In this document: positions 1 through 15,434 of the stretch, piece after piece
Layout: every line of letters begins with the position of its first letter
Position numbering within the stretch: position 1 is the stretch's first letter
Assembly: GCA_965232515.1 (NCBI GenBank)
Contig: CBDDPY010000002.1
Location: 4,256,001 to 4,320,000 of the forward strand
DNA: 64,000 nucleotides
Direction: 5' to 3'
Source of the DNA: Alphaproteobacteria bacterium
Lineage (GTDB): Bacteria; Pseudomonadota; Alphaproteobacteria; GCA-2731375
Translations under genes and position numbers: made by a program
Notes under the pieces: model-generated
Databases searched by the model: none
Told to the model about the DNA's origin: nothing
Seen by the model: only the letters and a program-made list of their open reading frames with translations

Positions 1-172
1 GTTCATCAGCCCGGCGGTCCAGGTCCATGACGTGACTTGCCAGCCCGATGACCGGGTCGGTCGCAGCGAGGGCCGGTAATGCCGCTGTTGTGGCGGCAAC
101 GGGCAAGATACCGGCGCCGGCAACGATTGCACGGCGCGTGACGGTATTCGGTTTGTGGTCTATCGTTGTCAT
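1..172 (-). CDS. Hypothetical protein with Tat-like N-terminus (partial, runs off window)
   Basis: Manual translation MTTIDHKPNTVTRRAIVAGAGILPVAATTAALPALA...; purine-rich upstream sequence. Confidence 0.6.
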   Translation of the reverse strand, partial: MTTIDHKPNTVTRRAIVAGAGILPVAATTAALPALAATDPVIGLASHVMDLDRRADE

Positions 173-245
173 GCTTCTTTTCCCTTCGCGGGTGATTGAG
201 GCAAAGGGGCCGTCCGGGAGGTCCAGTCCTGGACGGCCCGCTGCA

Positions 246-416
246 TTACACCTCGAGCTGGGTCGACAGCCTGTCGAGCCTGCCGGCGATTTCCTGAATG
301 ACGGATGCCTGTTTCCGCACCACGGCGGGATGGGCTTCCGCAAGTTCGTGAAGCCGCGCAGTGTCGCGCCATGCGTCCATCACGACGGCTTCGGCTTCCT
401 GTCTTGGGTTCTGCAT
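246..416 (-). CDS. Small hypothetical protein (56 aa)
   Basis: Manual translation MQNPRQEAEAVVMDAWRDTARLHELAEAHPAVVRKQASVIQEIAGRLDRLSTQLEV*, with GGGAGG RBS 4 nt upstream; below the ORF-track cutoff. Confidence 0.6.
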   Translation of the reverse strand: MQNPRQEAEAVVMDAWRDTARLHELAEAHPAVVRKQASVIQEIAGRLDRLSTQLEV

Positions 417-484
417 TCATCCTCCCTTTGTGACCGGACACGGACTGTCCGCCAGTACCCCGCGGACGGAGCAATAGGAGACAG

Positions 485-814
485 TCACGCGGCTTCGCGG
501 GAGAGTTGGCGGCGCAGGTTTGCGGCCTCGCCCACCATCACAATGCAGATGCTGGTGGCCATGGTGGAACGGCCCAGCGGGTTGGCTCGGTGATACTTCA
601 GCGCCCGCGCCAGCTTCAGCAGGATATGCCCGGTGAAATCCGCCCCGATGTCGTTGTGCACCGTCAGCAGATCGTCGGTCAGGTTGCCGGGATAGACCGG
701 GGCTAGATCGCGGGCGCGGTCGTAGAACTTGGCGGCATCGCGGACCTGGCGCTTGCGGCTGGCAATACCCATTTGCCGGGCTTGCTGGCGGGCTTTGTCG
801 AGAGCGGTTGTCAT
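485..814 (-). CDS. Hypothetical phage protein
   Basis: 109 aa ORF, first gene of the leftward unit divergent from the HTH gene. Confidence 0.65.
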   Translation of the reverse strand: MTTALDKARQQARQMGIASRKRQVRDAAKFYDRARDLAPVYPGNLTDDLLTVHNDIGADFTGHILLKLARALKYHRANPLGRSTMATSICIVMVGEAANLRRQLSREAA

Positions 815-852
815 GATCGTGCGGCCTTGGACGATTGTATTTGCATCTTATG

Positions 853-909
853 TGACTTAATATAAGTCATTATTGACGCAGTTTCAACAGATTTCGGTCA
901 CAAATGACC
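853..909. promoter_or_regulatory. Operator-like inverted repeats in a divergent promoter region
   Basis: TGACTTA-ata-TAAGTCA (853-869) and GGTCA-caaa-TGACC (896-909) in an AT-rich intergenic region. Confidence 0.55.
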
Positions 910-923
910 AAATTTAATTCACT

Positions 924-1157
924 ATGATGACCGGCGCACAAATCAGGATGGCTCGCGGCTACCTCAAATGGTCAGTTCAAGAGCTGGCGAGCAAAGCCGG
1001 CGTCGGCGCGTCGACAGTGCAGCGGATGGAAGCGGTTGAGGGTGTCCCGGCCGCGTCGGGCAAGAACCTTGCGGCCGTCCAAAAAGCCCTAGAGGCTGCA
1101 GGTGTCCGGTTCATAGACGAGAACGGCGGCGGGCCGGGCGTGCGACTGAAGGGCTAG
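924..1157 (+). CDS. XRE/Cro-like helix-turn-helix regulator
   Basis: QIRMARGYLKWSVQELASKAGVGASTVQRME...ALEAAGVRFIDENGGGPGVRL, a typical alphaproteobacterial HTH_XRE pattern. Confidence 0.9.
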   Translation: MMTGAQIRMARGYLKWSVQELASKAGVGASTVQRMEAVEGVPAASGKNLAAVQKALEAAGVRFIDENGGGPGVRLKG

Positions 1158-1160
1158 GCG

Positions 1161-1322
1161 ATGTGGACGACTATCGCGGCCCTCATTTCCCTGTTCGCCA
1201 TCAGCGCGACGATCTGGGTATTCGTCTATCTGGATACCGGCCTTGGGCTGATGTGCGCGGCCATCCTGGCTGGCGGATTGTTTTATCGTTGGATGCTCAA
1301 TCGAGACAATCCGTCAGCGTGA
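1161..1322 (+). CDS. Small two-TM membrane protein (53 aa)
   Basis: Manual translation MWTTIAALISLFAISATIWVFVYLDTGLGLMCAAILAGGLFYRWMLNRDNPSA*; starts 3 nt after the HTH stop. Confidence 0.6.
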   Translation: MWTTIAALISLFAISATIWVFVYLDTGLGLMCAAILAGGLFYRWMLNRDNPSA

Positions 1323-2222
1323 CTATTTATCCGAATCGCGCGCGCGATTCGGATAAAGCAAGAAAACCAATAGCTCGGCCGCTTGGGCCAACTTGGCGTT
1401 TTCATCTTCCAGGCATAGGGTTTCTAGGAGAGTGAGGGCGTGCCCCAAGTTCATGTTGCCGAGTATGTTTTCGCTGTCGTTCAGGTTCTTGTTTGTGGCG
1501 GTCAGATAGCCGGCAACCCATTGCTCCACGGCATATCGATAATTGATTGTCTCGCCGTCGTCTGGTTGCTGTCGTGCTGCGACAAATTCGGCACAACTGC
1601 GCTGGCCGGCGGCAAAGGCTACGTAGCCGCTTCCGGTTGGCGGCGGGCCTACCCGCGTAGCCTGTTCGCCAAAGCGAGGCTTGGGTTTGTCATCCAAAGC
1701 CGCCGCACATTTAGCCAAACGCAAGAGCGCCTTGTTAGAGCCGGTCAGATCAAAGCGGAACGTCTGCGGGTCGGTTTCGACGTAGAGGGCGAACCCGCGT
1801 CGCAATGCCTCAACGTGGCCTTCTTCAGCGCCAAGCACGACACGGAAAGAATCAACGTCGAGCACCTCGATACGGAAGTTGCCCAACTCAAGCGCATCCG
1901 TTCGCACGAAAGCGACCAGATCTCTTTCATAGAAGTCGAATCCGTCTTTTGCGATCACGACAGACAGCCCGCCTTGGCGTGACAGCAATATTGCTAGCCA
2001 TTCACCATTCGGATATCGCTGGTTTATCTGGCATTGCCGATCCGAAATAGCGGAGCCAGACCATAGTCCGGCTTTGAACTCATGACGGGCATCGGCCCGG
2101 GTAAAGGCCGGGATCGCGAGCGCCAATAGCGCCAACATCACGCCCCATACGATCCCTGCCTTAATGCCGTTCATGGCCAACCCCAACCGGTTGCGATACC
2201 CGATTAGATCAGTCTGACGCAT
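1323..2222 (-). CDS. Exported hypothetical protein with a C-terminal HdeA-like cysteine-pair domain
   Basis: Hydrophobic signal-like segment; SCAEFV...WVAGYLTATN...TLC motif; start codon uncertain. Confidence 0.65.
   Translation of the reverse strand: MRQTDLIGYRNRLGLAMNGIKAGIVWGVMLALLALAIPAFTRADARHEFKAGLWSGSAISDRQCQINQRYPNGEWLAILLSRQGGLSVVIAKDGFDFYERDLVAFVRTDALELGNFRIEVLDVDSFRVVLGAEEGHVEALRRGFALYVETDPQTFRFDLTGSNKALLRLAKCAAALDDKPKPRFGEQATRVGPPPTGSGYVAFAAGQRSCAEFVAARQQPDDGETINYRYAVEQWVAGYLTATNKNLNDSENILGNMNLGHALTLLETLCLEDENAKLAQAAELLVFLLYPNRARDSDK
1326..1357. repeat. Perfect 32-bp palindrome
   Basis: TTTATCCGAATCGCGC|GCGCGATTCGGATAAA, no spacer. Confidence 0.95.
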
Positions 2223-2350
2223 CGGCGTTGAAACCGGAATAACGGCCGGGATGTCCGGCAGTTAAATTACACATAAATAACGTAAAATTTTTCTTCATAC
2301 GGATCGGTGCTGGTGATATTGTATTTTCGTAACCAGCAAAGAGGTTAGGC

Positions 2351-2557
2351 ATGGGCCGATACACCAAGATCGTTTCGCACGCCGAAGACCCGGACGTGGT
2401 TGAGCGTGTTCGGGAGCTTGCCGAGCAAGCCGGCACGACGCCGAGCGCGTGGATACGTCAAGCGACGCGGGAGCGGTTGCGCGAAGCTGAGTGGAACGAG
2501 GCTGAATGGGAAGACGCCGAATGGTCGGATGGCTCAGACTTTGAGGGAGCGACCTGA
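2351..2557 (+). CDS. Ribbon-helix-helix (CopG-like) protein with acidic repeat tail
   Basis: DVVERVRELAEQAGTTPSAWIRQATRERL; tail EAEWN-EAEWE-DAEWS; GAGG RBS. Confidence 0.65.
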   Translation: MGRYTKIVSHAEDPDVVERVRELAEQAGTTPSAWIRQATRERLREAEWNEAEWEDAEWSDGSDFEGAT

Positions 2558-3969
2558 TGGCGAGTGGATGGAACGGCAGCGGTCAGGTTGTTCGCTCGGA
2601 CGGCACGAGAACGGGAACAACGGTCTGGGCGCAGGCGAAAGCAGCCGGACAGAGGATCATTGCGGCGTCGCACGATGTCCACGATGAGACGCTGGCCGAC
2701 TCGATAGAGGACTGCATCAACCGGAACGGTGAGAACGCGGTTACCGCCGATATCGGTTGGGGTGGCAACAAGATCACCAATATCGTTGGCATCACGGATG
2801 GTGACGGCGACACGCAAGTTCAGATCGAAGAAGGAGCCGACGACGACACGATCCGACTTGATGCAGCGGGCACGGAAGTTGCGTCGTTCACATCCACGGC
2901 GGCATCGATCAACACCGAACTGACGGTTGCGGAAGCCAATGACGGCGCGGATACATCTCTTGTCCTGAACAATTCCGCCGCTGCCGGATCGACGGACGAG
3001 ACGGCAGCGTTCGCCTTTCAGCAGGCAGGGTTACAGGCGGGCAAGATCGTCGCCGGCCGGATCTCGAACTATTCGTCCGATGCGAACGAAGACAGCTATC
3101 TTGCCCTGTTCACGTCACAAAGCGGGACGGACACCGAAGCCCTTAGGATTGACGAGGCGGGCAAGGTCTTCATCGGCGATACGCTGAATGCAAACGCCAC
3201 CGGTTCGTCGCTCACCATCAACCAGGGCGCGAGCGATGATGAAATCCTGGCGCTTAAATCCAGTGACGTAACGCATGGAACAACGGCCGTGACGGAAACC
3301 GATACGTTCGGCTTCGTTGACAAGAATACCGCCGCTGCGGGGGGATTGAACGTTCGCGGGCTGGCGGCGGCACAGAATGTCGGCCTTAATCTTTTCGCCT
3401 ATTCGCAGAATGACGACGCAAACAAAACCACAACGGCCGGTGGGCGGATGGTGTTGTCCTCGTTCAAGGTTTCCGGGACCGATATCACTGACTCCGGCGC
3501 AAACTCGAACATCTGCATCTGGCAGCATCGTTCGGGTGGCGCTAATCGTATCGCCATGATCCTTGACGAGGACGGCGATCTTCATGTCGATGGCTCGGGT
3601 ACGCTTTCGACGTTTGACGCCTTCAATGACGCCGCTCTTGTGCGCACTTTTGACATGATTCGCTCGCCAAACGAGGTCATCAAGTCGAAGTGGGACGAGT
3701 TTGTCGAATACGGACGTGCCGATCTTGTGAGAGCCGGCATCCTCGGTGATATCTCGCCGGAAGATGAGGCCCGAGGCCATGCACCGATGGTCAATGTTAC
3801 CCAGCTTCAGAGGTTACATAACGGTGCGATCTGGCAGCTTCACTGTCAGATGCGGGAGATGGGCGAGAAGCTCGAAAACCTGCATCGGGACGTTGGGCTT
3901 ATTCCGACGTTCAAGCGGGGGCTGCGGCGGATCTTCTCGGGCGGAAAGTCGGCGGTAGTGAATGGGTGA
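2557..3969 (+). CDS. Phage tail fibre-like protein
   Basis: N-terminus WNGSG...HDVHDETLADSIEDCINRNGENAVTADIGWGGNKITN resembles podovirus fibre anchor domains; G/T/A/D-rich beta-rich body; C-terminal helical chaperone-like region (VNVTQLQRLHNGAIWQL). Confidence 0.7.
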   Translation: MASGWNGSGQVVRSDGTRTGTTVWAQAKAAGQRIIAASHDVHDETLADSIEDCINRNGENAVTADIGWGGNKITNIVGITDGDGDTQVQIEEGADDDTIRLDAAGTEVASFTSTAASINTELTVAEANDGADTSLVLNNSAAAGSTDETAAFAFQQAGLQAGKIVAGRISNYSSDANEDSYLALFTSQSGTDTEALRIDEAGKVFIGDTLNANATGSSLTINQGASDDEILALKSSDVTHGTTAVTETDTFGFVDKNTAAAGGLNVRGLAAAQNVGLNLFAYSQNDDANKTTTAGGRMVLSSFKVSGTDITDSGANSNICIWQHRSGGANRIAMILDEDGDLHVDGSGTLSTFDAFNDAALVRTFDMIRSPNEVIKSKWDEFVEYGRADLVRAGILGDISPEDEARGHAPMVNVTQLQRLHNGAIWQLHCQMREMGEKLENLHRDVGLIPTFKRGLRRIFSGGKSAVVNG

Positions 3970-4363
3970 GATTATGCATAGCACCGCCGAATTGATGGCC
4001 CTGCCGGCGGATGAGCTGGAACGGCTGATAGCCGAACATCCCGAACGTGTGGCCGCTGTATTGGCGGACGGCAACCCAACCACAGCAGACGGGCAGGCGC
4101 TGGGCTCACGGCTCAGCAGCGGTGCGCTGCATACCTTGGTTGCGGCTTGGCATGGCTTAGATATCCCGGCGCACCTGAACCTTGACGACAATGCCCGCTG
4201 TGACGTGCTGCTACGTCTCTGCGGCATTGAGCCGCCGGCCTATGACGCGTTGTCGGAAAACGACAAAGGCAAGATCAACAATTTGATGCAGGCCGGCATG
4301 GATGCCAAGGCCGCGTGGATTGAGGTGACGGGCGAGCCGGCTCCGGAAGCGAGGACGCACTAA
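3962..4363 (+). CDS. Hypothetical phage protein
   Basis: 133 aa ORF overlapping both neighbours (translational coupling). Confidence 0.7.
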   Translation: MGEIMHSTAELMALPADELERLIAEHPERVAAVLADGNPTTADGQALGSRLSSGALHTLVAAWHGLDIPAHLNLDDNARCDVLLRLCGIEPPAYDALSENDKGKINNLMQAGMDAKAAWIEVTGEPAPEARTH

Positions 4364-5778
4364 TGACGGGCACAATGTCACGATTGCTCAGTGCCATGAC
4401 GGAAAGGCAGGCACTTGGACCCTCGGGACAGACGCCGGCTTCTGCTTTTGCCCAACAGCTTCTGACCAATCAGCCTGGCGGGCTTGGAAACCTCGCCAGC
4501 CCGATCATCGCAGCGATGTTGTTGAAACGAGACCAGGAACAGCGACAGCGCATCGAGGGCGAGGACGCGGACATGTTCCGTCAGGCGTTGAAAGCGCTTC
4601 AAGGCGGCGTCAAAGAGTTCCGCAGCCCGGACACGGGCGAGGTGCTCGTACCCGGACAACAGCCCGGCGCACAGGCGTTCGCGCAGGTGCTGGCGGGTAA
4701 CCCCCGCACCGCTCCCATTGCAGCAAACGTCATGGCCGACGCATTGCAGCAGAACCGGCCTAAGTTCGTGAACGTGCCGAATGTGGGGCTGGTCCGAACA
4801 CAGGGCGACACGGCGGAAACGGTCATAGAGGCGCGGCCGGACGAGTTTGAAACGATCAGGCTCAATAACGGTGTGCTGGCCCAGCGGAACAAGCGCACCA
4901 ACAAAATTTCATCTTTGCCACAGACACGCCCGCCATCGGCGCGACAAGCGCGCATACAGTCGTTGATGGACCAGGGCTTGGACCAGACAACGGCAGCCAA
5001 CGTCGCGGATGGCTTTATTCAGATTTTGCCGGACGCGCTGGGCCGACCCGTTGCCGTTAATGTCGTGACGAACGAACAGACGCCCTTACGTGTCAGCAGC
5101 GTCCAAACCAGCCAACAGCCAGCGTCAGCCGCGTCACAAGTTACACAGCCGACACAGAGTCCCGAGCCGGCGAACGTTCCGCAATCTGCCGTCAATGTAG
5201 TTGACGGCACACCCAGTGACAGCGCATCTCCGCCCGCGTTGCCAACCGACCGACCGCCTTTGACGGCCTTCGAGGCTGTCCAGGGCGGTACGGGCATCCT
5301 GCCGGCTATACAGGGCGCAATCTCAAGCACAGCCGGTCAGTTCTTCGAGGGTGCGCAGTTTCCGGGGGTGGCCCAAAGGCGCGCATTCTTTGCCGGCCTT
5401 CAGCAGCAAGCCATTAGAGCGTTCTCGACTGGCGGCAAGACGCCCGTGGTCGAGCAAGAGCGGATCGCAAACATCTTCGCGAAATTGGGCGCATTGGAAA
5501 GCGAGGCGGACGCCGTGGCGTCGCTGCAAACCGCCGTGCAGATGATCGACCAGCGCATTGCGCAGAACGAACGAGCGATGCGGGCTCCCAATACGCCGAC
5601 AAAAGATATCCCCGAGCTGGCCCGAGGCATCACCGAACTCAGGAACCTGAAAGAAGTTGTGGGCGTCCCTTTGCCAGGACAGGTGCAGCAGAACGGGCCG
5701 CAGCAGACGGGTGAGGATTTCGGCGACCTGACGACCGATGAAGCGGATGAGCTTCGACGCCTGCGGGGGCAGCAGTGA
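4363..5778 (+). CDS. Probable phage DNA-ejection / internal virion protein
   Basis: 471 aa, Q/A-rich, helical, no cysteine, with a low-complexity P/Q/S linker; position next to a larger similar ORF as in P22-like ejection modules (inference). Confidence 0.55.
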   Translation: MTGTMSRLLSAMTERQALGPSGQTPASAFAQQLLTNQPGGLGNLASPIIAAMLLKRDQEQRQRIEGEDADMFRQALKALQGGVKEFRSPDTGEVLVPGQQPGAQAFAQVLAGNPRTAPIAANVMADALQQNRPKFVNVPNVGLVRTQGDTAETVIEARPDEFETIRLNNGVLAQRNKRTNKISSLPQTRPPSARQARIQSLMDQGLDQTTAANVADGFIQILPDALGRPVAVNVVTNEQTPLRVSSVQTSQQPASAASQVTQPTQSPEPANVPQSAVNVVDGTPSDSASPPALPTDRPPLTAFEAVQGGTGILPAIQGAISSTAGQFFEGAQFPGVAQRRAFFAGLQQQAIRAFSTGGKTPVVEQERIANIFAKLGALESEADAVASLQTAVQMIDQRIAQNERAMRAPNTPTKDIPELARGITELRNLKEVVGVPLPGQVQQNGPQQTGEDFGDLTTDEADELRRLRGQQ

Positions 5779-8348
5779 TGCCGACGCCGCGCGAAGAACT
5801 CACCATTCGCCGCGAGCTAGCCGCCGGTAATCTGTCACCGAGACGGGAATTGGAATTGCGGCGTCAGTTGTCGGATATCCCGACGCAGGGTGTTTCACCT
5901 TTCAACACGGCGGCGCAACCATTTGTCGGCTTCAACATGGGCTTGGCCGATGTTATCGATCTTCCGCAACGCGTCGGCACGGCGATAACGAACCCGGTTC
6001 GTGAGCTTGTCGGTTTGGAGCCGGCTCCCATCGATCAGACATCGCCAATTACCGATGCGCTGAGATCGGGTGCCGAGACGTTCCCGGCTACGACGGGCGT
6101 AGAGCGCGGGCTAAGGCGTGTAGGGCAAGAGTTCGGTGCAACGGCTCCGATAGCCGCACTGCCGTTTGTCGGCGCGTCGGGACGTGCCGCACAGACAGCC
6201 GCCAACGTCGGCACGCGAGGCTTTCAGGCTTTCCTGAACACTGTCAGGTCCACACCTGGTAGGGCGGCGGTAGGTGAAACCATTGCCACGGCCGGCGCTG
6301 GTACTGGCGCGGCAATAGCGAACGAACTAGCGCCCGGAAGCCAGGGCGCGGAGATCGCCGGCCAGCTAATTGGCGGTGTATCACCCGCCGCCCTTGCCAC
6401 GACGCCGACAAGCCTTGCCGTTCGCGCCGGTCGGAATGTCGCAAGCCGGTTTTCCGAGGATGCCATGCGCACCCGCGCACAGGATCAGGCGCGGGAAGTG
6501 ATCGGCGGCAACCTGACGCAAGAGGCAACCCAGAACCTCAATCAAGCCGACGACGTGACACGCGAGATACCGGGCTTCGATCCGACGCTTGCCGAGCGCA
6601 CAGGATCGCCCGGCCTGACGGCAACGCAACGGCGCATCGAGGCGCAGTCAAGCGGCGCGGACCTGGAAGCGGTCGCGGCCCGCAGACGCGCCAATGAGGC
6701 GGCTATCAACCGCTTCGGGCAGGTACGCGGCCCTTTGGGCGAGGACGCACCCGAATTTGTGATCGATACCGCGGCCCGCCGCGTTGACGATCTGCGCAGC
6801 ACGGTGGAACGCCAACAGGCCAGGACCGCCGGCCAGCGTCAGGACTTGGCGGAAAGCCTGCAACCGACTGACAGGGCTGCACAGGGCCGTGGCTTGCGGG
6901 ACACGCTCTTTGAGGCCCGGTCACGATCAAGCCAGGAAATGACGGCGCTTGCCGAACGGTTGGGCATCAACGACGCTGATGTCACCGCCGAGTTCACGAA
7001 TGCCCGGCAGCGCATCGAACAGGCATTTGCGCCGGGGTCGGTTTTTGAGGACCGGGCCAATGCGCCCGCCGTCTTGCAGGCAATCCGGAACGCTCCCGAG
7101 CAAGTGACGTTTCAGGATTTGAAGGCCCTTCGCGAACGCATCGGTGACGATCTGATGGACGCCGAAACGTCCGCCAATCCGAGTTCGAAGAAAATCCGCA
7201 CGCTGTCTACGTTGCAGCGGATGGTCGATAGCGTGATTGACGATCTTACCCGCACGGCAGACCCGGACCTGGCAGACCGTTACCGCCAATTTCGCACGAC
7301 CTATTTCAACGATCACGTTGCCCGGTTCAACCAGGGCCCGGCCTTCCGGGTAAGGCAGAAAGACGGCCGCGGATTTTTCCGTATCGCCGACGAAAAGGTA
7401 GCGCAGGCGTTTTTCGCACCCGGCGACGTCAGGTCCGCCCGTCAGTTCCGGGCGGTGTTCGGTGACAACCCCGACGCCAACAGCGCCATACAGGCCGTGG
7501 CTATGGATAGCTTGAGAAATGGCGTCGTGCGGGACGGCGTGATTAATCCGAGGGCGCTCGAAAACTGGGTTCGCAAACATCGGTCGGTGTTGGACGAGTT
7601 TCCGGAGATCGACGCGCTGGTGAGAGATGTTGCGTCGGCCGACGAATCCTTGCGAGCGCGTCAGACGCAACTCAGGGCCAGAACACAGACCATCGAAAAC
7701 CAAGCCATCACGAAGGAGCTTACCGCCTTCGGCCGCGCCACCAAGACGAGCGGAAGTGTGATTGACGCGGCCATCCGCGAGCCGCGCAAGATGGCCCAAC
7801 TTGCCGGCCGGTTGAAACGCAACCCCGATGCTTTGGCGGGATTGAGGCGGAACGTCTGGAACCGTGCGATATCGGGAAGCTCGGAAGACATCTTGCGGTT
7901 CATGAACGACAACGCCGGATCGCTAAGGGTGTTGTTCGGCGGCCGGCATTTCCGGGACATCGAAACCATCGCCGCCGCGCGAGCCATGCTCGAACGGGTG
8001 CCGTCGCCGACCGGGGCCGCATTTCAGCCCCGCCCGCTAGAAGGCGTCGAGCGCGCCATAGGCCAGGGCTTGCCGCAACTGTCTAGCCGCCTGTTTGCCG
8101 CCAGGACCGGGCGTGTCGGACGCGGCTATCTGGCGGTGGATACGTTCCTCAGAGGCATTCGAGGCCGTGCTGCCGTCGATGCCGACGACCTGCTGCGGGA
8201 AGCGCTCTACGACAGTCAGGTTGCCCGCGACATGGCCGAAGCCGTCAGGGTCGGTGAAGTCAAGCCGGATGTGGCGAAGCGCCTTGGTGCGCGCCTGTTC
8301 AATCTCGGGCAGCCATTCGAGTTTAGCGACGAGCAACAGAGGCCGTAG
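5775..8348 (+). CDS. Probable large phage DNA-ejection / transfer protein
   Basis: 857 aa, A/R-rich helical, no cysteine, with Gly/Ala-rich hydrophobic stretches in the N-terminal part. Confidence 0.6.
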   Translation: MMPTPREELTIRRELAAGNLSPRRELELRRQLSDIPTQGVSPFNTAAQPFVGFNMGLADVIDLPQRVGTAITNPVRELVGLEPAPIDQTSPITDALRSGAETFPATTGVERGLRRVGQEFGATAPIAALPFVGASGRAAQTAANVGTRGFQAFLNTVRSTPGRAAVGETIATAGAGTGAAIANELAPGSQGAEIAGQLIGGVSPAALATTPTSLAVRAGRNVASRFSEDAMRTRAQDQAREVIGGNLTQEATQNLNQADDVTREIPGFDPTLAERTGSPGLTATQRRIEAQSSGADLEAVAARRRANEAAINRFGQVRGPLGEDAPEFVIDTAARRVDDLRSTVERQQARTAGQRQDLAESLQPTDRAAQGRGLRDTLFEARSRSSQEMTALAERLGINDADVTAEFTNARQRIEQAFAPGSVFEDRANAPAVLQAIRNAPEQVTFQDLKALRERIGDDLMDAETSANPSSKKIRTLSTLQRMVDSVIDDLTRTADPDLADRYRQFRTTYFNDHVARFNQGPAFRVRQKDGRGFFRIADEKVAQAFFAPGDVRSARQFRAVFGDNPDANSAIQAVAMDSLRNGVVRDGVINPRALENWVRKHRSVLDEFPEIDALVRDVASADESLRARQTQLRARTQTIENQAITKELTAFGRATKTSGSVIDAAIREPRKMAQLAGRLKRNPDALAGLRRNVWNRAISGSSEDILRFMNDNAGSLRVLFGGRHFRDIETIAAARAMLERVPSPTGAAFQPRPLEGVERAIGQGLPQLSSRLFAARTGRVGRGYLAVDTFLRGIRGRAAVDADDLLREALYDSQVARDMAEAVRVGEVKPDVAKRLGARLFNLGQPFEFSDEQQRP

Positions 8349-8355
8349 CCAGCCC

Positions 8356-8778
8356 ATGGAATATTACCTTTCCCCCTGGCGTTTCGAGGCAGAGCCATAT
8401 CCGACTTGGCGCAGTCCGTTCGATGATGACGTGGGGTTGATCGATCTGCGCTCGCCGGCCCAGATCCGGTCGGACGGCATTGCCGAAGGCTACGGCCTGT
8501 TTGCAACGCGGGTGCGGCAGACCATTCCTGACTCGATCTACCTCGGGGACTCACTTCACGGCCAGATCGATACAACGACCCTCAAGCGAGAATTGGGTCT
8601 TGGTGAAGACATCGTTGCGACCGGCCTGGGCGAGGTAATTTACGAGTTGCTGACGATGCATGCTGATCCGATGGTATCGACACGTTGGGGCTGTCTGATG
8701 CCCTGCCAAAACGGTCGCAATGAAATTTGGCTTGGCGGTCGCATTGCTCGAATGCTGGTTCTGCCCGGTCAGTGTTGA
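8356..8778 (+). CDS. Hypothetical phage protein
   Basis: MEYYLSPWRF... 140 aa, starting 7 nt after the upstream stop. Confidence 0.6.
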   Translation: MEYYLSPWRFEAEPYPTWRSPFDDDVGLIDLRSPAQIRSDGIAEGYGLFATRVRQTIPDSIYLGDSLHGQIDTTTLKRELGLGEDIVATGLGEVIYELLTMHADPMVSTRWGCLMPCQNGRNEIWLGGRIARMLVLPGQC

Positions 8779-8797
8779 GCGTCCGCGTCTGGAATGG

Positions 8798-8953
8798 ATG
8801 CGCGCGCAATATCCGGATCTGTTTCGCCGCGCCTTGCTGTTGATGCGCGACGTGAACGCGGCTGCTGCAGAGATCGTCATGCACAACGCGGCGATATTGG
8901 ACGCCGCAAGTGAACAACACCGGGAGGTTCGCGAAAATGCCGCCGCTCGATAA
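8798..8953 (+). CDS. Possible small hypothetical protein
   Basis: MRAQYPDLFRRALLLMRD... fills the gap before TerS-1; start uncertain. Confidence 0.35.
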   Translation: MRAQYPDLFRRALLLMRDVNAAAAEIVMHNAAILDAASEQHREVRENAAAR

Positions 8954-9356
8954 CCAGCGTCATGAAAAATTCGCCCAAGCCCTCGCGGAAGGCATGTCAG
9001 CAGATGCCGCTTATGCCGAAGCCGGCTACAAACCCGATAGAGGCAACGCGTCTCGCCTGACGTCAAAAGACAGCATCCAAGCCCGTGTTTATGAGCTGCA
9101 GCAGGCAGCAGCGAAAAAGGCCGTGCTGACGCTTTCCGATCATCTGGAAACGCTCAAAGACATCAGGGATGCGGCCATAGCTGCACGACAGTACGCCGCT
9201 GCGACGAATGCGGAGGTCCATAGAGGCAAGGCGGCGGGTCTGTATGTTGAGCGCATTGAGACATCCGATGTGGTGCGTGTCGTAAGCGCTGAACCGATGA
9301 CGGATGACGAATGGGAGCAGCAGTATGGCGCCCAGACATCGGAAGCGACGCATTGA
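8937..9356 (+). CDS. Terminase small subunit-like protein 1 (Terminase_2 type)
   Basis: LDNQRHEKFAQALAEGMSADAAYAEAGYKPDRGNASRL...IQARVYEL HTH; GKAAGLYVER; GGAGG RBS. Confidence 0.8.
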   Translation: MPPLDNQRHEKFAQALAEGMSADAAYAEAGYKPDRGNASRLTSKDSIQARVYELQQAAAKKAVLTLSDHLETLKDIRDAAIAARQYAAATNAEVHRGKAAGLYVERIETSDVVRVVSAEPMTDDEWEQQYGAQTSEATH

Positions 9357-9643
9357 TGCCGGACACCAGATTCAAACCCGGCCAGAGCGGAAACCCGAAA
9401 GGCAGGCCGAAGGGCGCACGCTCGAGGCTGTCTGAGGCTTTCTTGCAAGAGCTGGCCGAACACTGGGAACAGAATGGGCGCGACGTGCTGGACCAAGTGA
9501 GAAACAACGATCCATCAACCTATCTGCGCGTCATTGCCTCACTAATCCCGAAGGGCATCAGTTTCTCGGGCGATATCAGCTACGCCGCTATACCAATTCC
9601 GGTCAGCGAGCGTGCGCCACTCGATATCGAAACCACGCACTGA
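9356..9643 (+). CDS. Terminase small subunit-like protein 2 (DUF5681 type)
   Basis: FKPGQSGNPKGRPKG motif; DPSTYLRVIASLIPK; TGATG overlap with TerS-1. Confidence 0.75.
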   Translation: MPDTRFKPGQSGNPKGRPKGARSRLSEAFLQELAEHWEQNGRDVLDQVRNNDPSTYLRVIASLIPKGISFSGDISYAAIPIPVSERAPLDIETTH

Positions 9644-9670
9644 TCAGCCTGTTCTTACAGGGATATACAG

Positions 9671-10096
9671 ATGGCGAAGTGGACACAGTGGACGGCAAAA
9701 AAAGAGGCAGACTTCCTCGCGATCCTTAGCAATGGCAGCAGCGTACAGGCGGCGGTACAGGCTATCGGGTGCAGCCGGTCGAACGCGTACAAGCGCAGAC
9801 AGAATGACCCGGAATTCGCCGCTCAGTGGGATGCGGCTATCGAAGCCGGCAGCGACCTACTCGAAGACGAAGCCAAGCGCCGCGCGCATGAAGGCGTTCT
9901 GGAGCCGGTCTACTACCAGGGCCAGGAAGTCGGCCAAGTGCGAAAATACTCTGACACGCTCTTGATGTTCATGTTGAAAGCCAGACGCCCGGACAAGTTC
10001 AAGGAACGCAAGGAACAGCAGCTAACGGGCAAAGATGGCGAGCGTCTCAAGCCAACCATCAACCTTACTATCGGATCTGAACCTTCATCTGCATGA
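9671..10096 (+). CDS. Terminase small subunit-like protein 3 (HTH type)
   Basis: FLAILSNGSSVQAAVQAIGCSRSNAYKRRQNDPEFAAQWDAA...LEDEAKRRAHEG...YSDTLLMFMLKARRPDKF...LTGKDG. Confidence 0.8.
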   Translation: MAKWTQWTAKKEADFLAILSNGSSVQAAVQAIGCSRSNAYKRRQNDPEFAAQWDAAIEAGSDLLEDEAKRRAHEGVLEPVYYQGQEVGQVRKYSDTLLMFMLKARRPDKFKERKEQQLTGKDGERLKPTINLTIGSEPSSA

Positions 10097-10139
10097 GAAG
10101 CAGGGACAGGCGTTCCTGAGCCATGCGACGGAGATCATG
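10035..10139 (+). pseudogene. N-terminal remnant of a terminase large subunit
   Basis: LNLHLHEKQGQAFLSHATEIM resembles the TerL Q-motif region that normally precedes a (L)YGGAAGGGKS-type Walker A; the frame overlaps the TerS-3 end, then similarity stops. Confidence 0.55.
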
Positions 10140-10215
10140 AGAGAACTCAGCTCTTCTAAGACCGACATACCACGTAACGTTGATTTTCGCTCGCCAATGG
10201 GTCAGATTAGTTGGC

Positions 10216-10719
10216 ATGGGGGAAAATGGAAAATCTGCTATCCAAGCAGCTCTTGTCGGAGGAATATTCGCCGTCGTAGCTGCAGTGTTGGGGGCGTTTG
10301 TAGGATATTGGATAGCTTCGCCGGGCGCGGACAGATTAAGGCAAATTGAAGCAGACACTGCTAGAGATCTGGCAACATACTTCTCGGAATTCATAGCATC
10401 TCGTGAACGCTTAGTGCGGCACTTGAAAGGTGAACCTCAGGAGAAAGCACCAGAAGAAGAGATCAACAAATACGTCGAGGAAGCCAAAAAGCTGGACCAG
10501 CAATGGAGAACATCAACGGTAGCGCTGGCGGCTGCACTACGTTTTGCCGAACATAATTTTGACGAGGGTGTTCAGAGCTTAGCCAGCGAATTCATCGAGT
10601 GGCATGCCGAGCAAGAAGCAGCGCGCGCTGGAAAGGCAATCACAGAGTGGGTTGATACAAGCAAGTACCAAGATTGGCGGGATAGGATCTTGAAGGCAAC
10701 ATCTCAAGCTGTGAGATGA
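10216..10719 (+). CDS. Hypothetical membrane-anchored protein (cargo)
   Basis: N-terminal TM (AALVGGIFAVVAAVLGAFVGYWI) followed by a helical domain; AT-richer codons. Confidence 0.7.
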   Translation: MGENGKSAIQAALVGGIFAVVAAVLGAFVGYWIASPGADRLRQIEADTARDLATYFSEFIASRERLVRHLKGEPQEKAPEEEINKYVEEAKKLDQQWRTSTVALAAALRFAEHNFDEGVQSLASEFIEWHAEQEAARAGKAITEWVDTSKYQDWRDRILKATSQAVR

Positions 10720-10738
10720 GCCGTACTCAGGGGCGAAA

Positions 10739-10939
10739 ATGAAAGCTTCGGCTTTTGTCGGATTTTTGTTGCTGGGCTTTCTCGTTGGGGCATTTTCGGC
10801 TGCAGTGGCGGAGGTAAAACAACCCGGCAAGCCGCCTGGTTGCCGGTATTTCTGCCCACCGCCGAACCCGTTGCCGTTTCCAAAGCCGATTAGGCAGCCA
10901 ACCGAGAAAAGCATCAGCAGTCTGGATACATATCGCTAA
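10739..10939 (+). CDS. Small secreted Pro-rich peptide
   Basis: Signal-peptide-like MKASAFVGFLLLGFLVGAFSAAVA followed by a CxxxC Pro-rich mature part. Confidence 0.45.
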   Translation: MKASAFVGFLLLGFLVGAFSAAVAEVKQPGKPPGCRYFCPPPNPLPFPKPIRQPTEKSISSLDTYR

Positions 10940-11057
10940 CGCCGGCTCGAACCTTCGGCCGTGAGTAAGGGCCAATGTCGAGACCCATCGGCAATGGCAG
11001 TGGTGCGGGTGATGCTGGAGATTTTGGGCGGCGTAAGGTGTATCGGACAACAGCAAA

Positions 11058-11582
11058 GTGAAATCGACGCACGAGACGGACCGCTTAACTGCGAGCAAGG
11101 CGTTCTACAGAGCTTTGACAGGACGCGATGAGCTTGGAGTCGTCATACGGGCTCACATCTACATCGAACAACTCGTCAACGAGACGCTAGAATGGTTAAT
11201 TCCATACCCTGACGCCTTGGATGCTATGGACTTGGATTACTCTCAGCGGGTCCGCCTATTGGTGGCACTCGGCTTGAAGGATCAGCACCTTGGTTCATTG
11301 CTAGCGCTCGGGAAACTAAGGAACGAGTTTGCGCACAGACTGGACGCCAAACTTACTGCTGGAAGGATGAATGACTTTTACAAGCGCTTCGACAGCGAGG
11401 ATAAGAAAATCATTCAGAGAGTTTACGATTCGACACGAAAGAAAGCTGGCGATCGCTCCAAGCCGAAGAAAATAACCAGCCTTGAGCCGAAGGATCGGTT
11501 TGCCCTATACGCAGCGACAATTCATGGGGCATTGCGCGCTGCGATAAGCGAATTGTCGGAGCAAAAAGAGCAAGCCCGTTAG
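11058..11582 (+). CDS. HEPN-motif (MtlR-like) protein
   Basis: VIRAHIYIE near the N-terminus and RNEFAH (RxxxxH). Confidence 0.65.
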   Translation: MKSTHETDRLTASKAFYRALTGRDELGVVIRAHIYIEQLVNETLEWLIPYPDALDAMDLDYSQRVRLLVALGLKDQHLGSLLALGKLRNEFAHRLDAKLTAGRMNDFYKRFDSEDKKIIQRVYDSTRKKAGDRSKPKKITSLEPKDRFALYAATIHGALRAAISELSEQKEQAR

Positions 11583-11609
11583 ACTGAGCTTGCTCTTTCC
11601 GGGGTAAAC

Positions 11610-12011
11610 TCAATCTTCGTCAAACCGATGCGTATCCTCATACAGCGCGATGGCTGCAAAATACTCTGACACTTCGCCAGGATCGGCCAGCCAGACGTTA
11701 TCTTCGGTGATAAGCAATCCCGACTTATCGAAAGCGTAAATAAGCTTCGGGTCAATGCCAGATCTGCGCATTGCCTCTATCATGTCCTGGTGCACGGCAT
11801 CGGCATCGCGCGACGTCGGTTCTTCGGCGTCGGGATCGAAAAACACTGGATCGCCAGGCGCCGGCTCGCGGCCGAATTTTTCGATGAACGCCGGTCGCTG
11901 CTTTTTCAACACCTCCATTGCTTCCGGCGATAGCGGCGTACTGGTTTCTTGGCGGCTGGATTTGGTGGAACGACGTTGACGCCGCGGGCGCCCTGATTTG
12001 CTCTTCGGCAT
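11610..12011 (-). CDS. Hypothetical protein
   Basis: 133 aa; FIEKFGREPAPGDPVFFD...GIDPKLIYAF; GGGAGG RBS. Confidence 0.7.
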   Translation of the reverse strand: MPKSKSGRPRRQRRSTKSSRQETSTPLSPEAMEVLKKQRPAFIEKFGREPAPGDPVFFDPDAEEPTSRDADAVHQDMIEAMRRSGIDPKLIYAFDKSGLLITEDNVWLADPGEVSEYFAAIALYEDTHRFDED

Positions 12012-12356
12012 AGCTGCCTCCCTTCTGAAAGCAGCTACCCATTATGTAGATCAGAAACAGGCCGACTATGGAATTTCGCGGGTAATCTTCCATAGTCTCG
12101 TCACGGTTTGTTCGCTACTAGTAGCCGCCGAGTTATGCTCCGAGCAACGCCTGAGCCAGGGAAGCCGGACCTATTTGGGCCGTGAGGGAGTCCTGCCCCT
12201 CCAGGCGCATCCCCAATCTGACGGCAGCCGTCCCGCTATTTCCCGGAACTACCCGAAAAATCCCGCTTCAGAGCTTCGAAACCGCGATTTCTGATTGCTA
12301 TGTGATTGCTAGCCGAGCGCTTGTTCGGCAGTGGTATTGCTAAGTCATTGAAAAGA

Positions 12357-12431
12357 TGGAGCGGGCGATGAGATTCGAACTCACGACTTCAACCTTGGCA
12401 AGGTTGCGCTCTACCCCTGAGCTACGCCCGC
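12357..12431 (-). tRNA. tRNA-Gly (GCC)
   Basis: Reverse complement GCGGGCGTAGCTCAGGGGTAGAGCGCAACCTTGCCAAGGTTGAAGTCGTGAGTTCGAATCTCATCGCCCGCTCCA: cloverleaf, GCC anticodon, TTCGAA T-loop, encoded CCA. Confidence 0.98.
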
Positions 12432-12468
12432 GTCGCTATGCTGCTCGCCATATCCGGAGAGCGAGCGG

Positions 12469-12496
12469 ATAATAAGCAAATCGCTTGCCGTTGCAA
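12469..12496 (-). promoter_or_regulatory. Putative sigma70 promoter of tRNA-Gly
   Basis: TTGCAA-N16-TATTAT on the minus strand. Confidence 0.45.
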
Positions 12497-12584
12497 GCGT
12501 CAAGAGGCGGGTTTTCCGGCGAACCCCGATCTGGCATAACGGCGCGCCAAAGCGACGATAACAAAACCGCCAACAGAACCCGCC

Positions 12585-13076
12585 ATGCCCGCGACACCGG
12601 AAGACCTGTTTGCCCGCCTGGACGACCTGGGCATCGCCACGACGACGCACGCGCACCCGCCGCTGCACACGGTCGAGGAGAGCCGGCGGCTGCGCGGCGC
12701 GCTGCCGGGCGGGCACTGCAAGAACCTCTATCTGCGCGACAAAAAGAAGCGCAACTGGCTGCTGGTGACGCTGGAGGACCGCGAGGTCGACCTGAAGACC
12801 GTGTCGACGGTGCTGGGCGCCGGGCGCTTGAGCTTCGGCAGCGCCGACCGGTTGATGGAGTTCCTGGGCGTGACGCCGGGCTCGGTGACGCCGTTCGCGC
12901 TGATCAACGACCCCGAACAGCGGGTGACCGTGGTGCTGGACGAAGCCATGCTGAAGGTCGATCTGTTGAACTATCATCCGCTGGTCAACACGGCGACGAC
13001 GGCGATCGCGCCCGACGACCTGCTGGTCTTCATCCGCGCCGGCGGCCACGAGCCGCAGATCGTGGCCCTGGACTAG
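12585..13076 (+). CDS. YbaK/ProX aminoacyl-tRNA deacylase (ProXp-ala-like)
   Basis: HPPLHTVEES, GGHCKNLYLRDKK, LGVTPGSVTPFALIND, HPLVNTAT. Confidence 0.92.
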   Translation: MPATPEDLFARLDDLGIATTTHAHPPLHTVEESRRLRGALPGGHCKNLYLRDKKKRNWLLVTLEDREVDLKTVSTVLGAGRLSFGSADRLMEFLGVTPGSVTPFALINDPEQRVTVVLDEAMLKVDLLNYHPLVNTATTAIAPDDLLVFIRAGGHEPQIVALD

Positions 13077-13100
13077 CGGGATGCCGGGCCGCGCCATGCC

Positions 13101-13129
13101 CTTGTATGCCCGCGTAACTGCTCCATAAT
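13101..13129 (+). promoter_or_regulatory. Putative RpoH (sigma32) promoter
   Basis: CTTG...CCATAAT upstream of a chaperedoxin/Lon-N operon. Confidence 0.45.
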
Positions 13130-13193
13130 TAATCACCTGGGGGGCGCGTTCCGGATGCGGACGCCACCCTCCGCAACGGCAAGGAAAACCATA

Positions 13194-14096: not shown

Positions 14097-14113
14097 GGCG
14101 GAGCCGCACCGAC

Positions 14114-14785: not shown

Positions 14786-14837
14786 GCCGGTGTAATAAGC
14801 GCGGGCAAACCAAGAATCGCGAGGAGGGACGCGCGCG

Positions 14838-15044
14838 ATGACGGACACCGAGGCGGTGGACCCGAAACTGCTGGAGATCCTGGTCTGTCCGCTGACCAAG
14901 GGCGAGCTGCGCTATGACCGGCAACGCCAGGAGCTGATCAGCGAACAGGCCCGGCTGGCCTATCCGATCCGCGACGGCATTCCGATCATGCTGGTCGACG
15001 AGGCGCGCAGCCTCGATGACGACGACGGGGCGGCCCCGGCCTGA
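14838..15044 (+). CDS. Trm112 family protein
   Basis: [14 protein letters not shown]...[13 protein letters not shown]. Confidence 0.92.
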
Positions 15045-15412: not shown

Positions 15413-15434
15413 TCGCGCCGCCCGCGACAAACCG

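What the first reader, a model, noticed from the sequence alone, without database searches (positions are those of the whole stretch)
1..12431. Candidate new type of phage satellite at tRNA-Gly: three TerS, tail fibre and ejection proteins, but no capsid, portal or TerL
Seen: one largely coupled rightward unit, RHH - tail fibre - hypothetical - two ejection-like proteins - hypothetical(s) - three TerS-like genes - TerL stump - cargo, ending at the tRNA 3' end. No capsid, portal, scaffold or lysis gene is recognisable, and the order (fibre, ejection, TerS) is the reverse of a usual P22-like late operon. Established: PICI-type satellites encode TerS to redirect helper packaging. Inference: this element may hijack podovirus helpers and supply its own receptor-binding and DNA-delivery proteins, which would set its own host range. 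The long ORFs are intact, which argues against simple decay, but a degraded prophage is not excluded and the left end is unseen.
Basis: partly seen in the sequence, partly recalled or inferred. Interest (0 to 1): 0.85.

Follow-up and report, generated by a model that had tools for sequence, protein, structure and literature searches.

The report
Capsid-less island with phage injection genes
A 35.8-kb mobile island inserted in a tRNA-Gly gene carries a phage tail-fibre-like gene, DNA-injection genes and several DNA-packaging-recognition genes but no capsid genes, and similar islands occur in other bacteria, so it is probably a new kind of phage parasite, though this copy shows wear.

Summary
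Window 2351-10140 is one tightly coupled rightward gene block: RHH, tail-fibre-like protein, a 133-aa ORF, two ejection proteins (E2, E3), two small ORFs, TerS_A, a DUF5681 protein, TerS_B and a roughly 35-codon TerL stump. Low-GC cargo and tRNA-Gly follow.

The unseen left end lies 23.4 kb upstream, at an exact 55-bp copy of the tRNA 3' end. The 35.8-kb island has a P4-type integrase and a RepA-like helicase. I found no capsid, portal or TerL in it. A related strain has the empty site.

In 7 phage contigs and 2 complete prophages, E3 ends the virion operon and no TerS was found after it. Where located (the 2 prophages), TerS lies about 20 kb upstream. In two other capsid-less, integrase-bearing alphaproteobacterial loci (G632 att-bounded; G811 boundaries undetermined), E3 is followed directly by a TerS-like gene. 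A third island (G009) has internal-virion protein, TerS_B, TerL.

So the architecture recurs, and a satellite-like lineage is the best reading (about 0.55). Helper use is not shown. This copy is eroding: the TerL stump, and in a second sample a 4-nt duplication truncating the fibre gene plus a joint skipping 9517-12350. The fibre was found only in this copy.

The parts
1..923 (.). Interior of the island. It continues leftwards for 23.4 kb outside the window, to attL at G000:C2:4232548-4232602. That part holds a P4-type integrase (L001:4731-6020), a RepA-like AAA_25+HTH protein (L001:8189-9148), SNase-like and SRAP genes, a HAF-repeat protein, two tandem tyrosine recombinases and an Endonuclease_NS gene.
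924..1157 (+). HTH (Cro/CI-type) regulator shared with related islands: 75% identical in G009:C33, 40-42% in G632, 41% in G008
1326..1357 (.). Perfect 32-bp palindrome (self-match on the opposite strand); function unknown
2351..2557 (+). RHH protein, first gene of the coupled block; its stop overlaps the next gene's start
   Evidence: Pfam hits below curated cut-offs
2557..3969 (+). Tail-fibre-like protein (470 aa). The C-terminal half is conserved and widespread in viral contigs; the N-terminal half is variable among homologues.
   Evidence: A truncating 4-nt duplication after 3557 is seen in a second sample.
3962..4363 (+). 133-aa hypothetical. It stands where phages carry E1 but is not detectably related to it.
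   Evidence: hhalign probability 0.1%
4363..5778 (+). E2, middle ejection / internal virion protein (471 aa)
   Evidence: hhalign 96.5%, E 9e-10 against the positional E2 set
5775..8348 (+). E3, largest ejection / internal virion protein (857 aa)
8356..8778 (+). 140-aa hypothetical, 7 nt after E3
   Evidence: no phage match
8720..8953 (+). 77-aa hypothetical
8910..9356 (+). TerS_A (Terminase_2 / phrog_51 type). This is the TerS family found at the start of the virion operon of the E3-bearing prophages G612 and G599.
9311..9643 (+). DUF5681 protein, TerS-like by one annotated phage match
9671..10096 (+). TerS_B (Sf6-like / phrog_4044), 50% identical to the TerS of the G009 islands
10035..10140 (+). 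TerL N-terminal stump of about 35 codons. It ends before the Walker A motif, where GC drops.
10141..12350 (.). Low-GC (0.52-0.53) cargo: ORFs 10180-10719 (+), 11058-11582 (+, phrog_5483) and 11610-12011 (-). No defence-system match.
12351..12405 (.). attR: exact 55-bp direct repeat of attL, made of the tRNA 3' part plus 6 nt
   Evidence: empty site in run X4
12357..12431 (-). tRNA-Gly(GCC), the integration target

Best explanation
The block belongs to a 35.8-kb integrative island, inserted as one unit in the 3' end of tRNA-Gly. The island is a member of a recurrent class of capsid-less, phage-derived islands of Alphaproteobacteria. These islands keep podovirus DNA-ejection (internal virion) genes directly upstream of one or more TerS genes.

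The most likely mode of action has five steps, all inferred and none shown.
1. A short-tailed helper phage infects the cell.
2. The island excises with its tyrosine integrase and replicates with its RepA-like helicase.
3. Its TerS proteins recognise island DNA and recruit the helper's large terminase, which fills helper capsids.
4. The island's E2 and E3, and in this copy a fibre, are built into those particles.
5. In this way it would act as a phage satellite that brings its own DNA-delivery parts.

This copy is a composite and is partly eroded. It once carried TerL next to TerS_B, as the G009 islands still do, and lost it. It has also gathered unrelated cargo.
For: Shown: one mobile unit.
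- Exact 55-bp direct repeats bound 35.8 kb of low-GC DNA (0.46-0.66, against 0.65-0.745 in the flanks).
- A contig of a related strain (run X4, flank 10 differences in 657 nt) runs from the tRNA straight into the sequence left of attL, 29 of 30 letters identical. That is the empty site.
- The island has an intact P4-type integrase (Phage_integrase, Arm-DNA-bind_3).
- Its AAA_25 protein resembles the RSF1010 RepA helicase (PDB 1g8y, E 6.7e-5).

Shown: no capsid machinery found.
- PHROGs gave no capsid, portal or TerL for the 56 chosen ORFs plus 103 further stop-to-stop ORFs of 93 aa or more.
- tblastn with 21 proteins of the G612 prophage (among them its virion genes from TerS to E3) found only E2 and E3.
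- The major head family of that prophage lineage (phrog_334) rings in G612 and G599 but nowhere in G000, G632 or G811.

Shown: the order recurs.
- In 7 phage contigs (L005, L006, L007, L011, L013, L016, L019), E3 is followed by lysis genes, a divergent replication module or unassigned ORFs, and no TerS was found after it.
- In 2 complete prophages (G612, G599), TerS lies about 20 kb upstream, at the start of an operon with portal and head genes.
- In the att-bounded 21.7-kb island of G632 at tRNA-Glu, the ORF overlapping the end of E3 matches annotated TerS in 8 of 8 phage hits.
- In G811, E3 is followed by a 156-aa ORF 42% identical to TerS_A, with an integrase 6 kb on.
- G632 also shares SNase (39%), SRAP (33%), HTH (40%) and integrase (26%) with this island.
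- The 17.9-kb att-bounded G009:C33 island shares integrase (51%), HTH (75%) and TerS_B (50%). It has a 1598-aa internal virion protein, then TerS, then TerL, with no portal.

Shown: tight coupling. Gene overlaps or gaps of 27 nt or less run across the whole block 2351-10140.
Against: - No helper, packaging, excision product or transfer was observed.
- G000 holds no Terminase_6N, TerL_ATPase, Phage_capsid, Phage_portal or phrog_334 gene, so no resident helper of these families was seen.
- TerL is reduced to a stump at a GC break, which is a deletion scar.
- In a second sample of the same study (X3), one contig at depth 12.2 of 12.2 carries a GATC duplication that truncates the fibre at 337 aa.
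- In the same sample, one contig joins 9516 to 12351, skipping the rest of the DUF5681 gene, TerS_B, the stump and the cargo. This suggests weak constraint.
- The fibre has no counterpart among the G612, G811 and G632 proteins I compared it with, and none turned up in the tblastn comparisons with G009, G632 or G811.
- E1 is missing.
- At 35.8 kb, with nucleases, a HAF-repeat gene and a tandem recombinase pair, the island is far less compact than described satellites.
- No nucleotide-level relative was found in 400 genomes of the phylum, so selection on this copy could not be measured.
Confidence: 0.55

Rival explanations
1. It is a dead prophage remnant. Pieces of one or two podovirus-like prophages (the end of a virion operon and the start of a packaging module) were brought together by deletions and recombination inside an integrative island. 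They have no present function.
For: - The TerL stump sits at a GC break.
- Sample X3 carries a fibre-truncating duplication and a joint that skips 9517-12350.
- The island has a mosaic composition and much unrelated cargo.
- TerS_A belongs to the same family as the TerS of the complete E3-bearing prophages G612 and G599, so a phage origin is clear.
- G008 has an orphan TerS-TerL pair and an orphan E3-like gene scattered among opposite-strand genes.
Against: - The same non-phage order (E3, then TerS) occurs in two further loci, G632 and G811, with non-identical TerS types; G632 is att-bounded.
- All four long ORFs are intact in G000, and the joins are tight, for example 7 nt between E3 and the next gene.
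- The exact 55-bp repeats, the intact integrase and an empty site in a related strain point to recent mobility of the capsid-less form.
- Deriving the order from a G612-like prophage needs at least three separate deletions.
Confidence: 0.25
2. It is an interference (defence) island rather than a transfer device. The island-encoded TerS, ejection proteins and fibre act as decoys that misdirect the terminase or spoil the virions of an infecting podovirus. They protect the host population, and the island spreads by other means.
For: - Satellites and islands are reported to block helper packaging and tail assembly. I saw this only in the search listings and abstracts for the PLE packaging paper (10.1101/2024.04.22.590561) and the Tai paper (PMC11364771).
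- Three different TerS-like genes in a row would suit blocking several phage types.
Against: - No PADLOC family matched the 31 flanking, cargo and left-part ORFs scanned; the block genes 2351-10140 were not scanned.
- Interference and satellite transfer are not exclusive in known systems.
- There is no direct evidence either way.
Confidence: 0.12
3. It is a complete virus of an unknown kind, whose capsid and portal genes are among the unassigned ORFs of the left 23 kb.
For: Many ORFs of 230-350 aa in the left part have no family assignment.
Against: - These ORFs lie on both strands among nuclease, recombinase and HAF-repeat genes, not in an operon.
- TerL is truncated.
- There are no PHROG hits.
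Confidence: 0.03

Closest known systems
PICI (phage-inducible chromosomal islands, including SaPIs), as defined in the SatelliteFinder paper (PMC10085698; passages of its section on PICI read)
   Same: It is an integrase-bearing, att-bounded island with regulators, a replication-type protein and TerS gene(s). It has no capsid, portal or TerL. The presumed logic is the same: TerS redirects helper packaging.
   Different: - It carries virion delivery genes (E2, E3) and a tail-fibre-like gene. Tail genes are 'forbidden' components in the PICI model.
- No AlpA, MerR or Stl homologue, primase or capsid-morphogenesis gene was found.
- It has two to three TerS-type genes plus a TerL stump.
- It is 35.8 kb long.
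Capsid-forming PICIs (cf-PICI) and the Streptomyces satellites MulchRoom and MiniFlayer (PMC10690885, passages read; 10.1101/2025.02.11.637232, abstract in a search listing)
   Same: These are satellites that bring some virion parts of their own. MiniFlayer encodes a tail fibre protein, so a satellite-encoded fibre has a precedent.
   Different: Those elements encode their own capsid and packaging genes and borrow tails. This island has no capsid genes, and instead has ejection proteins and TerS.
Ejection proteins of P22-like podoviruses (gp7, gp20, gp16; recalled, not from a call) and the prophages G612 and G599 found here
   Same: E2 and E3 are homologous (30-38% identity) or positionally equivalent to the last genes of the virion operon, after a PHROG 'DNA ejection protein'.
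   Different: In phages these genes follow TerS-TerL-portal-head-tail genes. Here they stand without them and ahead of TerS.
   Same: It has the same overall idea and host class. The G632 and G811 loci that I found independently fit its description.
   Different: I could not compare sequences with it. The present island adds a fibre-like gene, three TerS-type genes, a TerL stump and a RepA-like helicase.

Membership tests
PICI (SatelliteFinder definition, PMC10085698) | Integrase | tested here: met
   L001:4731-6020 hits Phage_integrase at 1.4e-16, Arm-DNA-bind_3 at 7.4e-13 and phrog_1 at 2e-59
PICI (SatelliteFinder definition, PMC10085698) | Regulation module homologous to alpA, merR or stl | tested here: inconclusive
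   HTH_31/HTH_3 (924-1157) and RHH (2351-2557) regulators are present. No AlpA or MerR family hit appeared in the Pfam scans of the island ORFs.
PICI (SatelliteFinder definition, PMC10085698) | Primase-replicase module | tested here: inconclusive
   An AAA_25 protein with a C-terminal HTH is present. It is like the helicase part of phage primase/helicases and like RSF1010 RepA. No primase domain was found.
PICI (SatelliteFinder definition, PMC10085698) | Small terminase subunit | tested here: met
   TerS_A and TerS_B
PICI (SatelliteFinder definition, PMC10085698) | No tail, holin, portal or connector genes ('forbidden' components) | tested here: not met
   A tail-fibre-like gene lies at 2557-3969. 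Portal and holin were not found.
cf-PICI | Own capsid, portal, head-tail connector and TerL genes | tested here: not met
   None was found by PHROGs or Pfam in the island. Only a TerL stump remains.
P4-like satellites | psu-delta-sid operon, alpA, epsilon, alpha primase | tested here: not met
   Only the P4-type integrase architecture is shared. No PHROG or Pfam hit to the other components was found.
Complete or defective prophage of the E3-bearing podovirus lineage (G612, G599) | TerS-TerL-portal-head-tail genes upstream of E1-E2-E3, or their remnants | tested here: not met
   tblastn with the G612 prophage's 21 proteins found only E2 and E3 in the island. phrog_334 is absent from G000. TerS_A of the same family is present, but downstream of E3.
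Capsid-less E2-E3-TerS islands (G632 and G811 here; scan note e1-5178593) | tRNA-integrated and att-bounded, with a tyrosine integrase next to the partial tRNA copy | tested here: met
   G000. G632: 49-bp repeat of the tRNA-Glu 3' part beside the integrase. The ends of the G811 locus were not determined.
Capsid-less E2-E3-TerS islands (G632 and G811 here; scan note e1-5178593) | E2-E3 pair followed directly by a TerS-type gene, with no head genes | tested here: met
   G000. G632. G811. Absence of head genes.

The most novel reading that the evidence does not exclude
This would be a family of satellites of short-tailed phages that borrow only the helper's capsid, tail core and large terminase, and supply their own DNA-ejection proteins. 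This member would in addition carry its own receptor-binding fibre and three alternative TerS proteins. It could then parasitise several helper lineages and choose its own recipients, building chimeric particles whose delivery end belongs to the satellite.
Probability: 0.3. Interest if true: 0.85.

Novelty: new variant of a known kind. Interest (0 to 1): 0.68.

Why it matters
Described satellite families take over capsid size, packaging specificity or, in cf-PICIs, build the head. None of those I saw in four literature searches is described as capsid-less yet carrying the proteins that travel with the DNA into the next cell.

If these islands are packaged, ejection proteins and even fibres would be exchangeable between a helper and its parasite. 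That bears on three matters:
- how host range and entry barriers of transducing particles are set;
- how many 'unexplained' genomic islands at tRNA genes move;
- how satellites arise from phages, since the TerL stump and the G009 islands with intact TerL look like stages of reduction.

It also matters for annotation. Current satellite finders would reject such an island because tail genes are 'forbidden' components (PMC10085698).

Tried and rejected
No fold evidence exists for any protein.
- PDB sequence searches of the fibre (single sequence and profile) gave nothing. The E3 profile gave only weak homeodomain noise.
- E3, the 140-aa ORF and most of the fibre have no or almost no match among 50,697 cultured phage records.
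- Pattern-based scans of genome contigs for E3 found nothing. HMM searches were needed.
- E2, the fibre and TerS_B were not found by single-sequence search in the four IMG/VR records that hold E3.
- The TerLs of phages POR1 and RcRudolph left no trace in the island, and the G009 TerL does not align with the stump.
- No internal att copy exists, so tandem elements are not indicated.
- PADLOC gave no defence system, only weak HTH hits.
- NCBIfam added only the HAF repeat.
- The promoter and terminator scans did not exceed the shuffles.
- No nucleotide-level relative was found in 400 genomes of the phylum.
- TerS_B relatives in 42 genome loci share nothing else with the island. TerL relatives of the G009 type share only TerL.
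- Runs X4 and X5 have no cover over the island interior. For X4 I use only the contig that bridges the empty site. Otherwise a lack of cover is not evidence.
- The Terminase_6N search in G632, G811 and G008 was uninformative, because the TerL of the G612 prophage does not belong to that family.
- dN/dS was not attempted, because the related islands are too diverged (33-45% protein identity).
- Supplementary files of papers were not consulted.

Full report
**What is in the window**

The window is G000:C2:4256001-4320000. ARAGORN finds one tRNA, tRNA-Gly(GCC), on the minus strand at 12357-12431. Left of it the GC content is 0.52-0.66. To its right GC rises to 0.65-0.72.

From 2351 to about 10140 there is one rightward block with overlapping or nearly abutting genes:
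- RHH at 2351-2557;
- a 470-aa ORF at 2557-3969;
- a 133-aa ORF at 3962-4363;
- a 471-aa ORF at 4363-5778 (E2);
- an 857-aa ORF at 5775-8348 (E3);
- a 140-aa ORF at 8356-8778 and a 77-aa ORF at 8720-8953;
- TerS_A at 8910-9356;
- a DUF5681 protein at 9311-9643;
- TerS_B at 9671-10096;
- an ORF starting at 10035.

Pfam and PHROGs recognise only some of these. The RHH scores weakly. TerS_A hits phrog_51 at 8.8e-14, DUF5681 scores 2.9e-11, and TerS_B hits phrog_4044 at 8.9e-39.

**The left end**

An exact 55-bp copy of window 12351-12405 (the tRNA 3' part plus 6 nt) lies at C2:4232548-4232602, 23.4 kb left of the window. No third copy exists, not even a degenerate one. The repeats enclose 35.8 kb of GC 0.46-0.66, between flanks of 0.72-0.745 on the left and 0.65-0.72 on the right.

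The upstream 23.4 kb holds the following:
- next to the left repeat, a P4-type tyrosine integrase (Phage_integrase, Arm-DNA-bind_3);
- an AAA_25 protein with a C-terminal HTH;
- SNase-like and SRAP genes;
- a HAF-repeat protein;
- two tandem tyrosine recombinases;
- an Endonuclease_NS gene;
- many unassigned ORFs on both strands.

The AAA_25 protein resembles the helicase part of phage primase/helicases and the RSF1010 RepA helicase (PDB 1g8y, E 6.7e-5).

I scanned 56 chosen ORFs and 103 further stop-to-stop ORFs of 93 aa or more against PHROGs. None is a capsid, portal, large terminase, tail tube or lysis protein.

**It is one insertion**

Logan contigs of four coded runs were laid on window 1-16000. 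Run X1 is identical and may be the source sample.

Run X4 has another organism label, and its flank differs at 10 of 657 letters. It has a contig that covers the tRNA and the right flank. Before place 12351 that contig continues with 30 letters, of which 29 equal the G000 sequence just left of the left repeat. This is the empty site in a related strain. The 35.8 kb between the repeats is therefore an insertion with exact ends.

**What the large proteins are**

E3 has nine homologues of 41-49% identity in the large protein collection. It has none among cultured phages. It has relatives in 8 IMG/VR and 8 metagenome loci.

PHROG scans of the neighbours show one pattern: head or virion structural proteins, then tail fibre genes, then a 'DNA ejection protein' (phrog_4287 or phrog_598, here called E1), then a 410-555-aa protein (E2), then the E3 homologue of 865-926 aa.

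What follows E3 in the phage contigs is:
- an endolysin in L007, L011 and L013, and in L016 after two further ORFs;
- a divergent replication module in L005;
- unassigned small ORFs in L006;
- an M15 peptidase in L019.

The window's 471-aa protein matches a profile of the positional E2 proteins (hhalign probability 96.5%, E 9e-10). The 133-aa ORF does not match the E1 profile.

The 470-aa protein has 175 homologues. They share its C-terminal half and differ in length and N-terminal parts. 248 IMG/VR stretches encode relatives. Its only two matches among cultured phages are annotated tail fiber protein. 'Tail fibre' is thus a reasonable label but not a proven one. No fold evidence could be obtained.

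**The packaging genes**

TerS_A and TerS_B belong to different TerS families, and each matches annotated TerS genes of phages. The DUF5681 protein matches 7 phage records, and in one of them it is the annotated TerS at the start of the genome.

The first 35 codons or so of the ORF at 10035 give tblastn E-values of only 0.1-1. Of the 25 listed matches, 21 lie under features annotated TerL, and one of these is at the first bases of its record. The motif L-x-L-H-x-x-Q-x-Q-A-x-x-S-x-A resembles the N-termini of TerLs found next to TerS_B relatives. After this motif, where a Walker A motif should follow, the sequence turns unrelated and GC falls to about 0.50. This is a truncated TerL.

**Comparison with other genomes**

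No paralogue of any block gene exists elsewhere in G000. No nucleotide-level relative was found in 400 genomes of the phylum.

An HMM of E3 found 4 other genomes among 400 of the class. It found one more among the 14 genomes of the order of G632.

G612 and G599 hold complete prophages. Their order is TerS (phrog_51, the family of TerS_A), TerL, portal, major head protein (phrog_334), tail genes, E1, E2, E3, then small genes and a tRNA-Ser.

G632 holds a 21.7-kb island bounded by a 49-bp repeat of the 3' part of tRNA-Glu:
- E1-E2-E3 begin 410 nt after the tRNA.
- The ORF that overlaps the end of E3 matches annotated TerS in 8 of 8 phage hits.
- SNase-like, HTH and SRAP genes follow, homologous to those of the G000 island (33-40% identity).
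- At the far end, beside the partial tRNA copy, sits an integrase. The same placement is seen in G000.

G811, of the same genus as G632, has E2, then E3, then a 156-aa ORF 42% identical to TerS_A over 79 residues. It also has a homologue of the 245-aa neighbour of the RepA-like gene, and an integrase 6 kb on. Its ends were not determined.

Neither G632 nor G811 shows any match to the G612 virion proteins other than E2/E3. Neither genome has phrog_334.

TerS_B led to G009, which is in the same bacterial family as G000:
- A 17.9-kb island bounded by direct repeats has an HTH 75% identical to window 924-1157.
- It has a 1598-aa internal virion / polyvalent protein, a TerS 50% identical to TerS_B, and an intact TerL.
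- Small ORFs, an excisionase-like gene and an integrase 51% identical to that of G000 follow.
- No portal or head gene was found.
- A second copy, disrupted by IS elements, lies elsewhere in the same genome.

G008 has an orphan TerS-TerL pair and an E3-like gene near a tRNA-Ala.

In summary, E3 is followed by lysis genes, a divergent replication module or unassigned ORFs, with no TerS found after it, in 7 phage contigs and 2 complete prophages. It is followed by TerS in all three capsid-less, integrase-bearing loci (G000 and G632 att-bounded, G811 with undetermined ends). A fourth island has the analogous order with a different injected protein.

I treat it as a lead. The loci named above were found independently of it.

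**Signs of wear**
- TerL is a stump.
- The right 2.2 kb is low-GC cargo.
- The island is twice the size of its relatives and carries nucleases, a HAF-repeat gene and a recombinase pair.
- In run X3 (a second sample of the same study, nearly identical sequence) one contig has a GATC tandem duplication after 3557, at depth 12.2 of 12.2. It would end the fibre at 337 instead of 470 aa.
- In the same run one contig (depth 22.6, 30 letters on the shorter side, letters between not known) joins 9516 to the start of the att repeat at 12351. Other X3 contigs still cover 9483-10064 and 11197-11790.
- The fibre has no counterpart among the G612, G811 and G632 proteins I compared it with, and none turned up in the tblastn comparisons with G009, G632 or G811.
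- G000 has no Terminase_6N, TerL_ATPase, Phage_capsid, Phage_portal or phrog_334 gene anywhere, so no resident helper of these families is present.

**Reading**

The comparative pattern favours a lineage of capsid-less, integrase-borne islands that keep ejection genes next to TerS. This is satellite-like: TerS would recruit a helper's terminase and capsids, and E2/E3 would travel with the DNA. I put this at about 0.55.

A functionless remnant is at about 0.25. It is supported by the scars, but it does not explain the recurrence or the tight joins. An interference role (about 0.12) is compatible with the same genes. An unknown complete virus is unlikely (about 0.03).

By the PICI definition read in PMC10085698, the island has the integrase and TerS. 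It has a doubtful regulator and replication module, no capsid-morphogenesis gene, and a 'forbidden' tail gene. It works like a PICI but is not a member.

A satellite-encoded tail fibre has a precedent in MiniFlayer, which however has its own capsid genes (PMC10690885). Four literature searches showed no described capsid-less satellite with ejection proteins. Supplementary files were not consulted.

Noticed in passing
window 1326-1357: A perfect 32-bp palindrome inside the island, between the HTH gene and the RHH gene. It also breaks the Logan contigs of run X1 at this place.
   Followed up: no
L002:4314-7279 (G000:C2:4248314-4251279), left of the window: Two overlapping tyrosine recombinase genes (648 and 340 aa) lie next to a HAF-repeat protein on the other strand. 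This may be a nested mobile element inside the island.
   Followed up: partly
L167, L168, L169, L172 (alphaproteobacterial MAG contigs) and L171: A small phrog_15261 ORF (seen in L167, L168 and L172) plus a TerL 55-60% identical to the G009 island TerL stand without any portal or head gene after them. One MAG has five such TerL loci (L168, L169, L170, L172, L179). L172 also has a DnaC-like loader and an integrase nearby. This could be another class of capsid-less, terminase-bearing elements.
   Followed up: partly
G811:C11, E3 gene (L199/L200): The 1155-aa E3 of G811 contains a segment 36% identical over 176 residues to the large polyvalent / internal virion protein of the G009 island. This suggests domain exchange between the injected proteins of these islands.
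   Followed up: no
L187 (G008:C22:1-20000): An orphan TerS (phrog_51) and TerL pair, an E3-like 810-aa gene and an HTH 41% identical to window 924-1157 are scattered among opposite-strand genes near a tRNA-Ala. This may be a more decayed relative.
   Followed up: partly
G000 whole genome: No match to Phage_capsid (PF05065), Phage_portal (PF04860), Terminase_6N or TerL_ATPase was found anywhere in this 7.4-Mb alphaproteobacterial genome. Contigs C3 (5.5 kb) and C4 (10.9 kb) have GC 0.46 and 0.42, against 0.655 for the chromosome.
   Followed up: no
L002:7780-8296 (window-relative about -3985 to -3758): A second SNase-like stretch in the island is 38% identical over 76 residues to the SNase-like gene of the G632 island, in addition to the copy at L002:3-422.
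   Followed up: no
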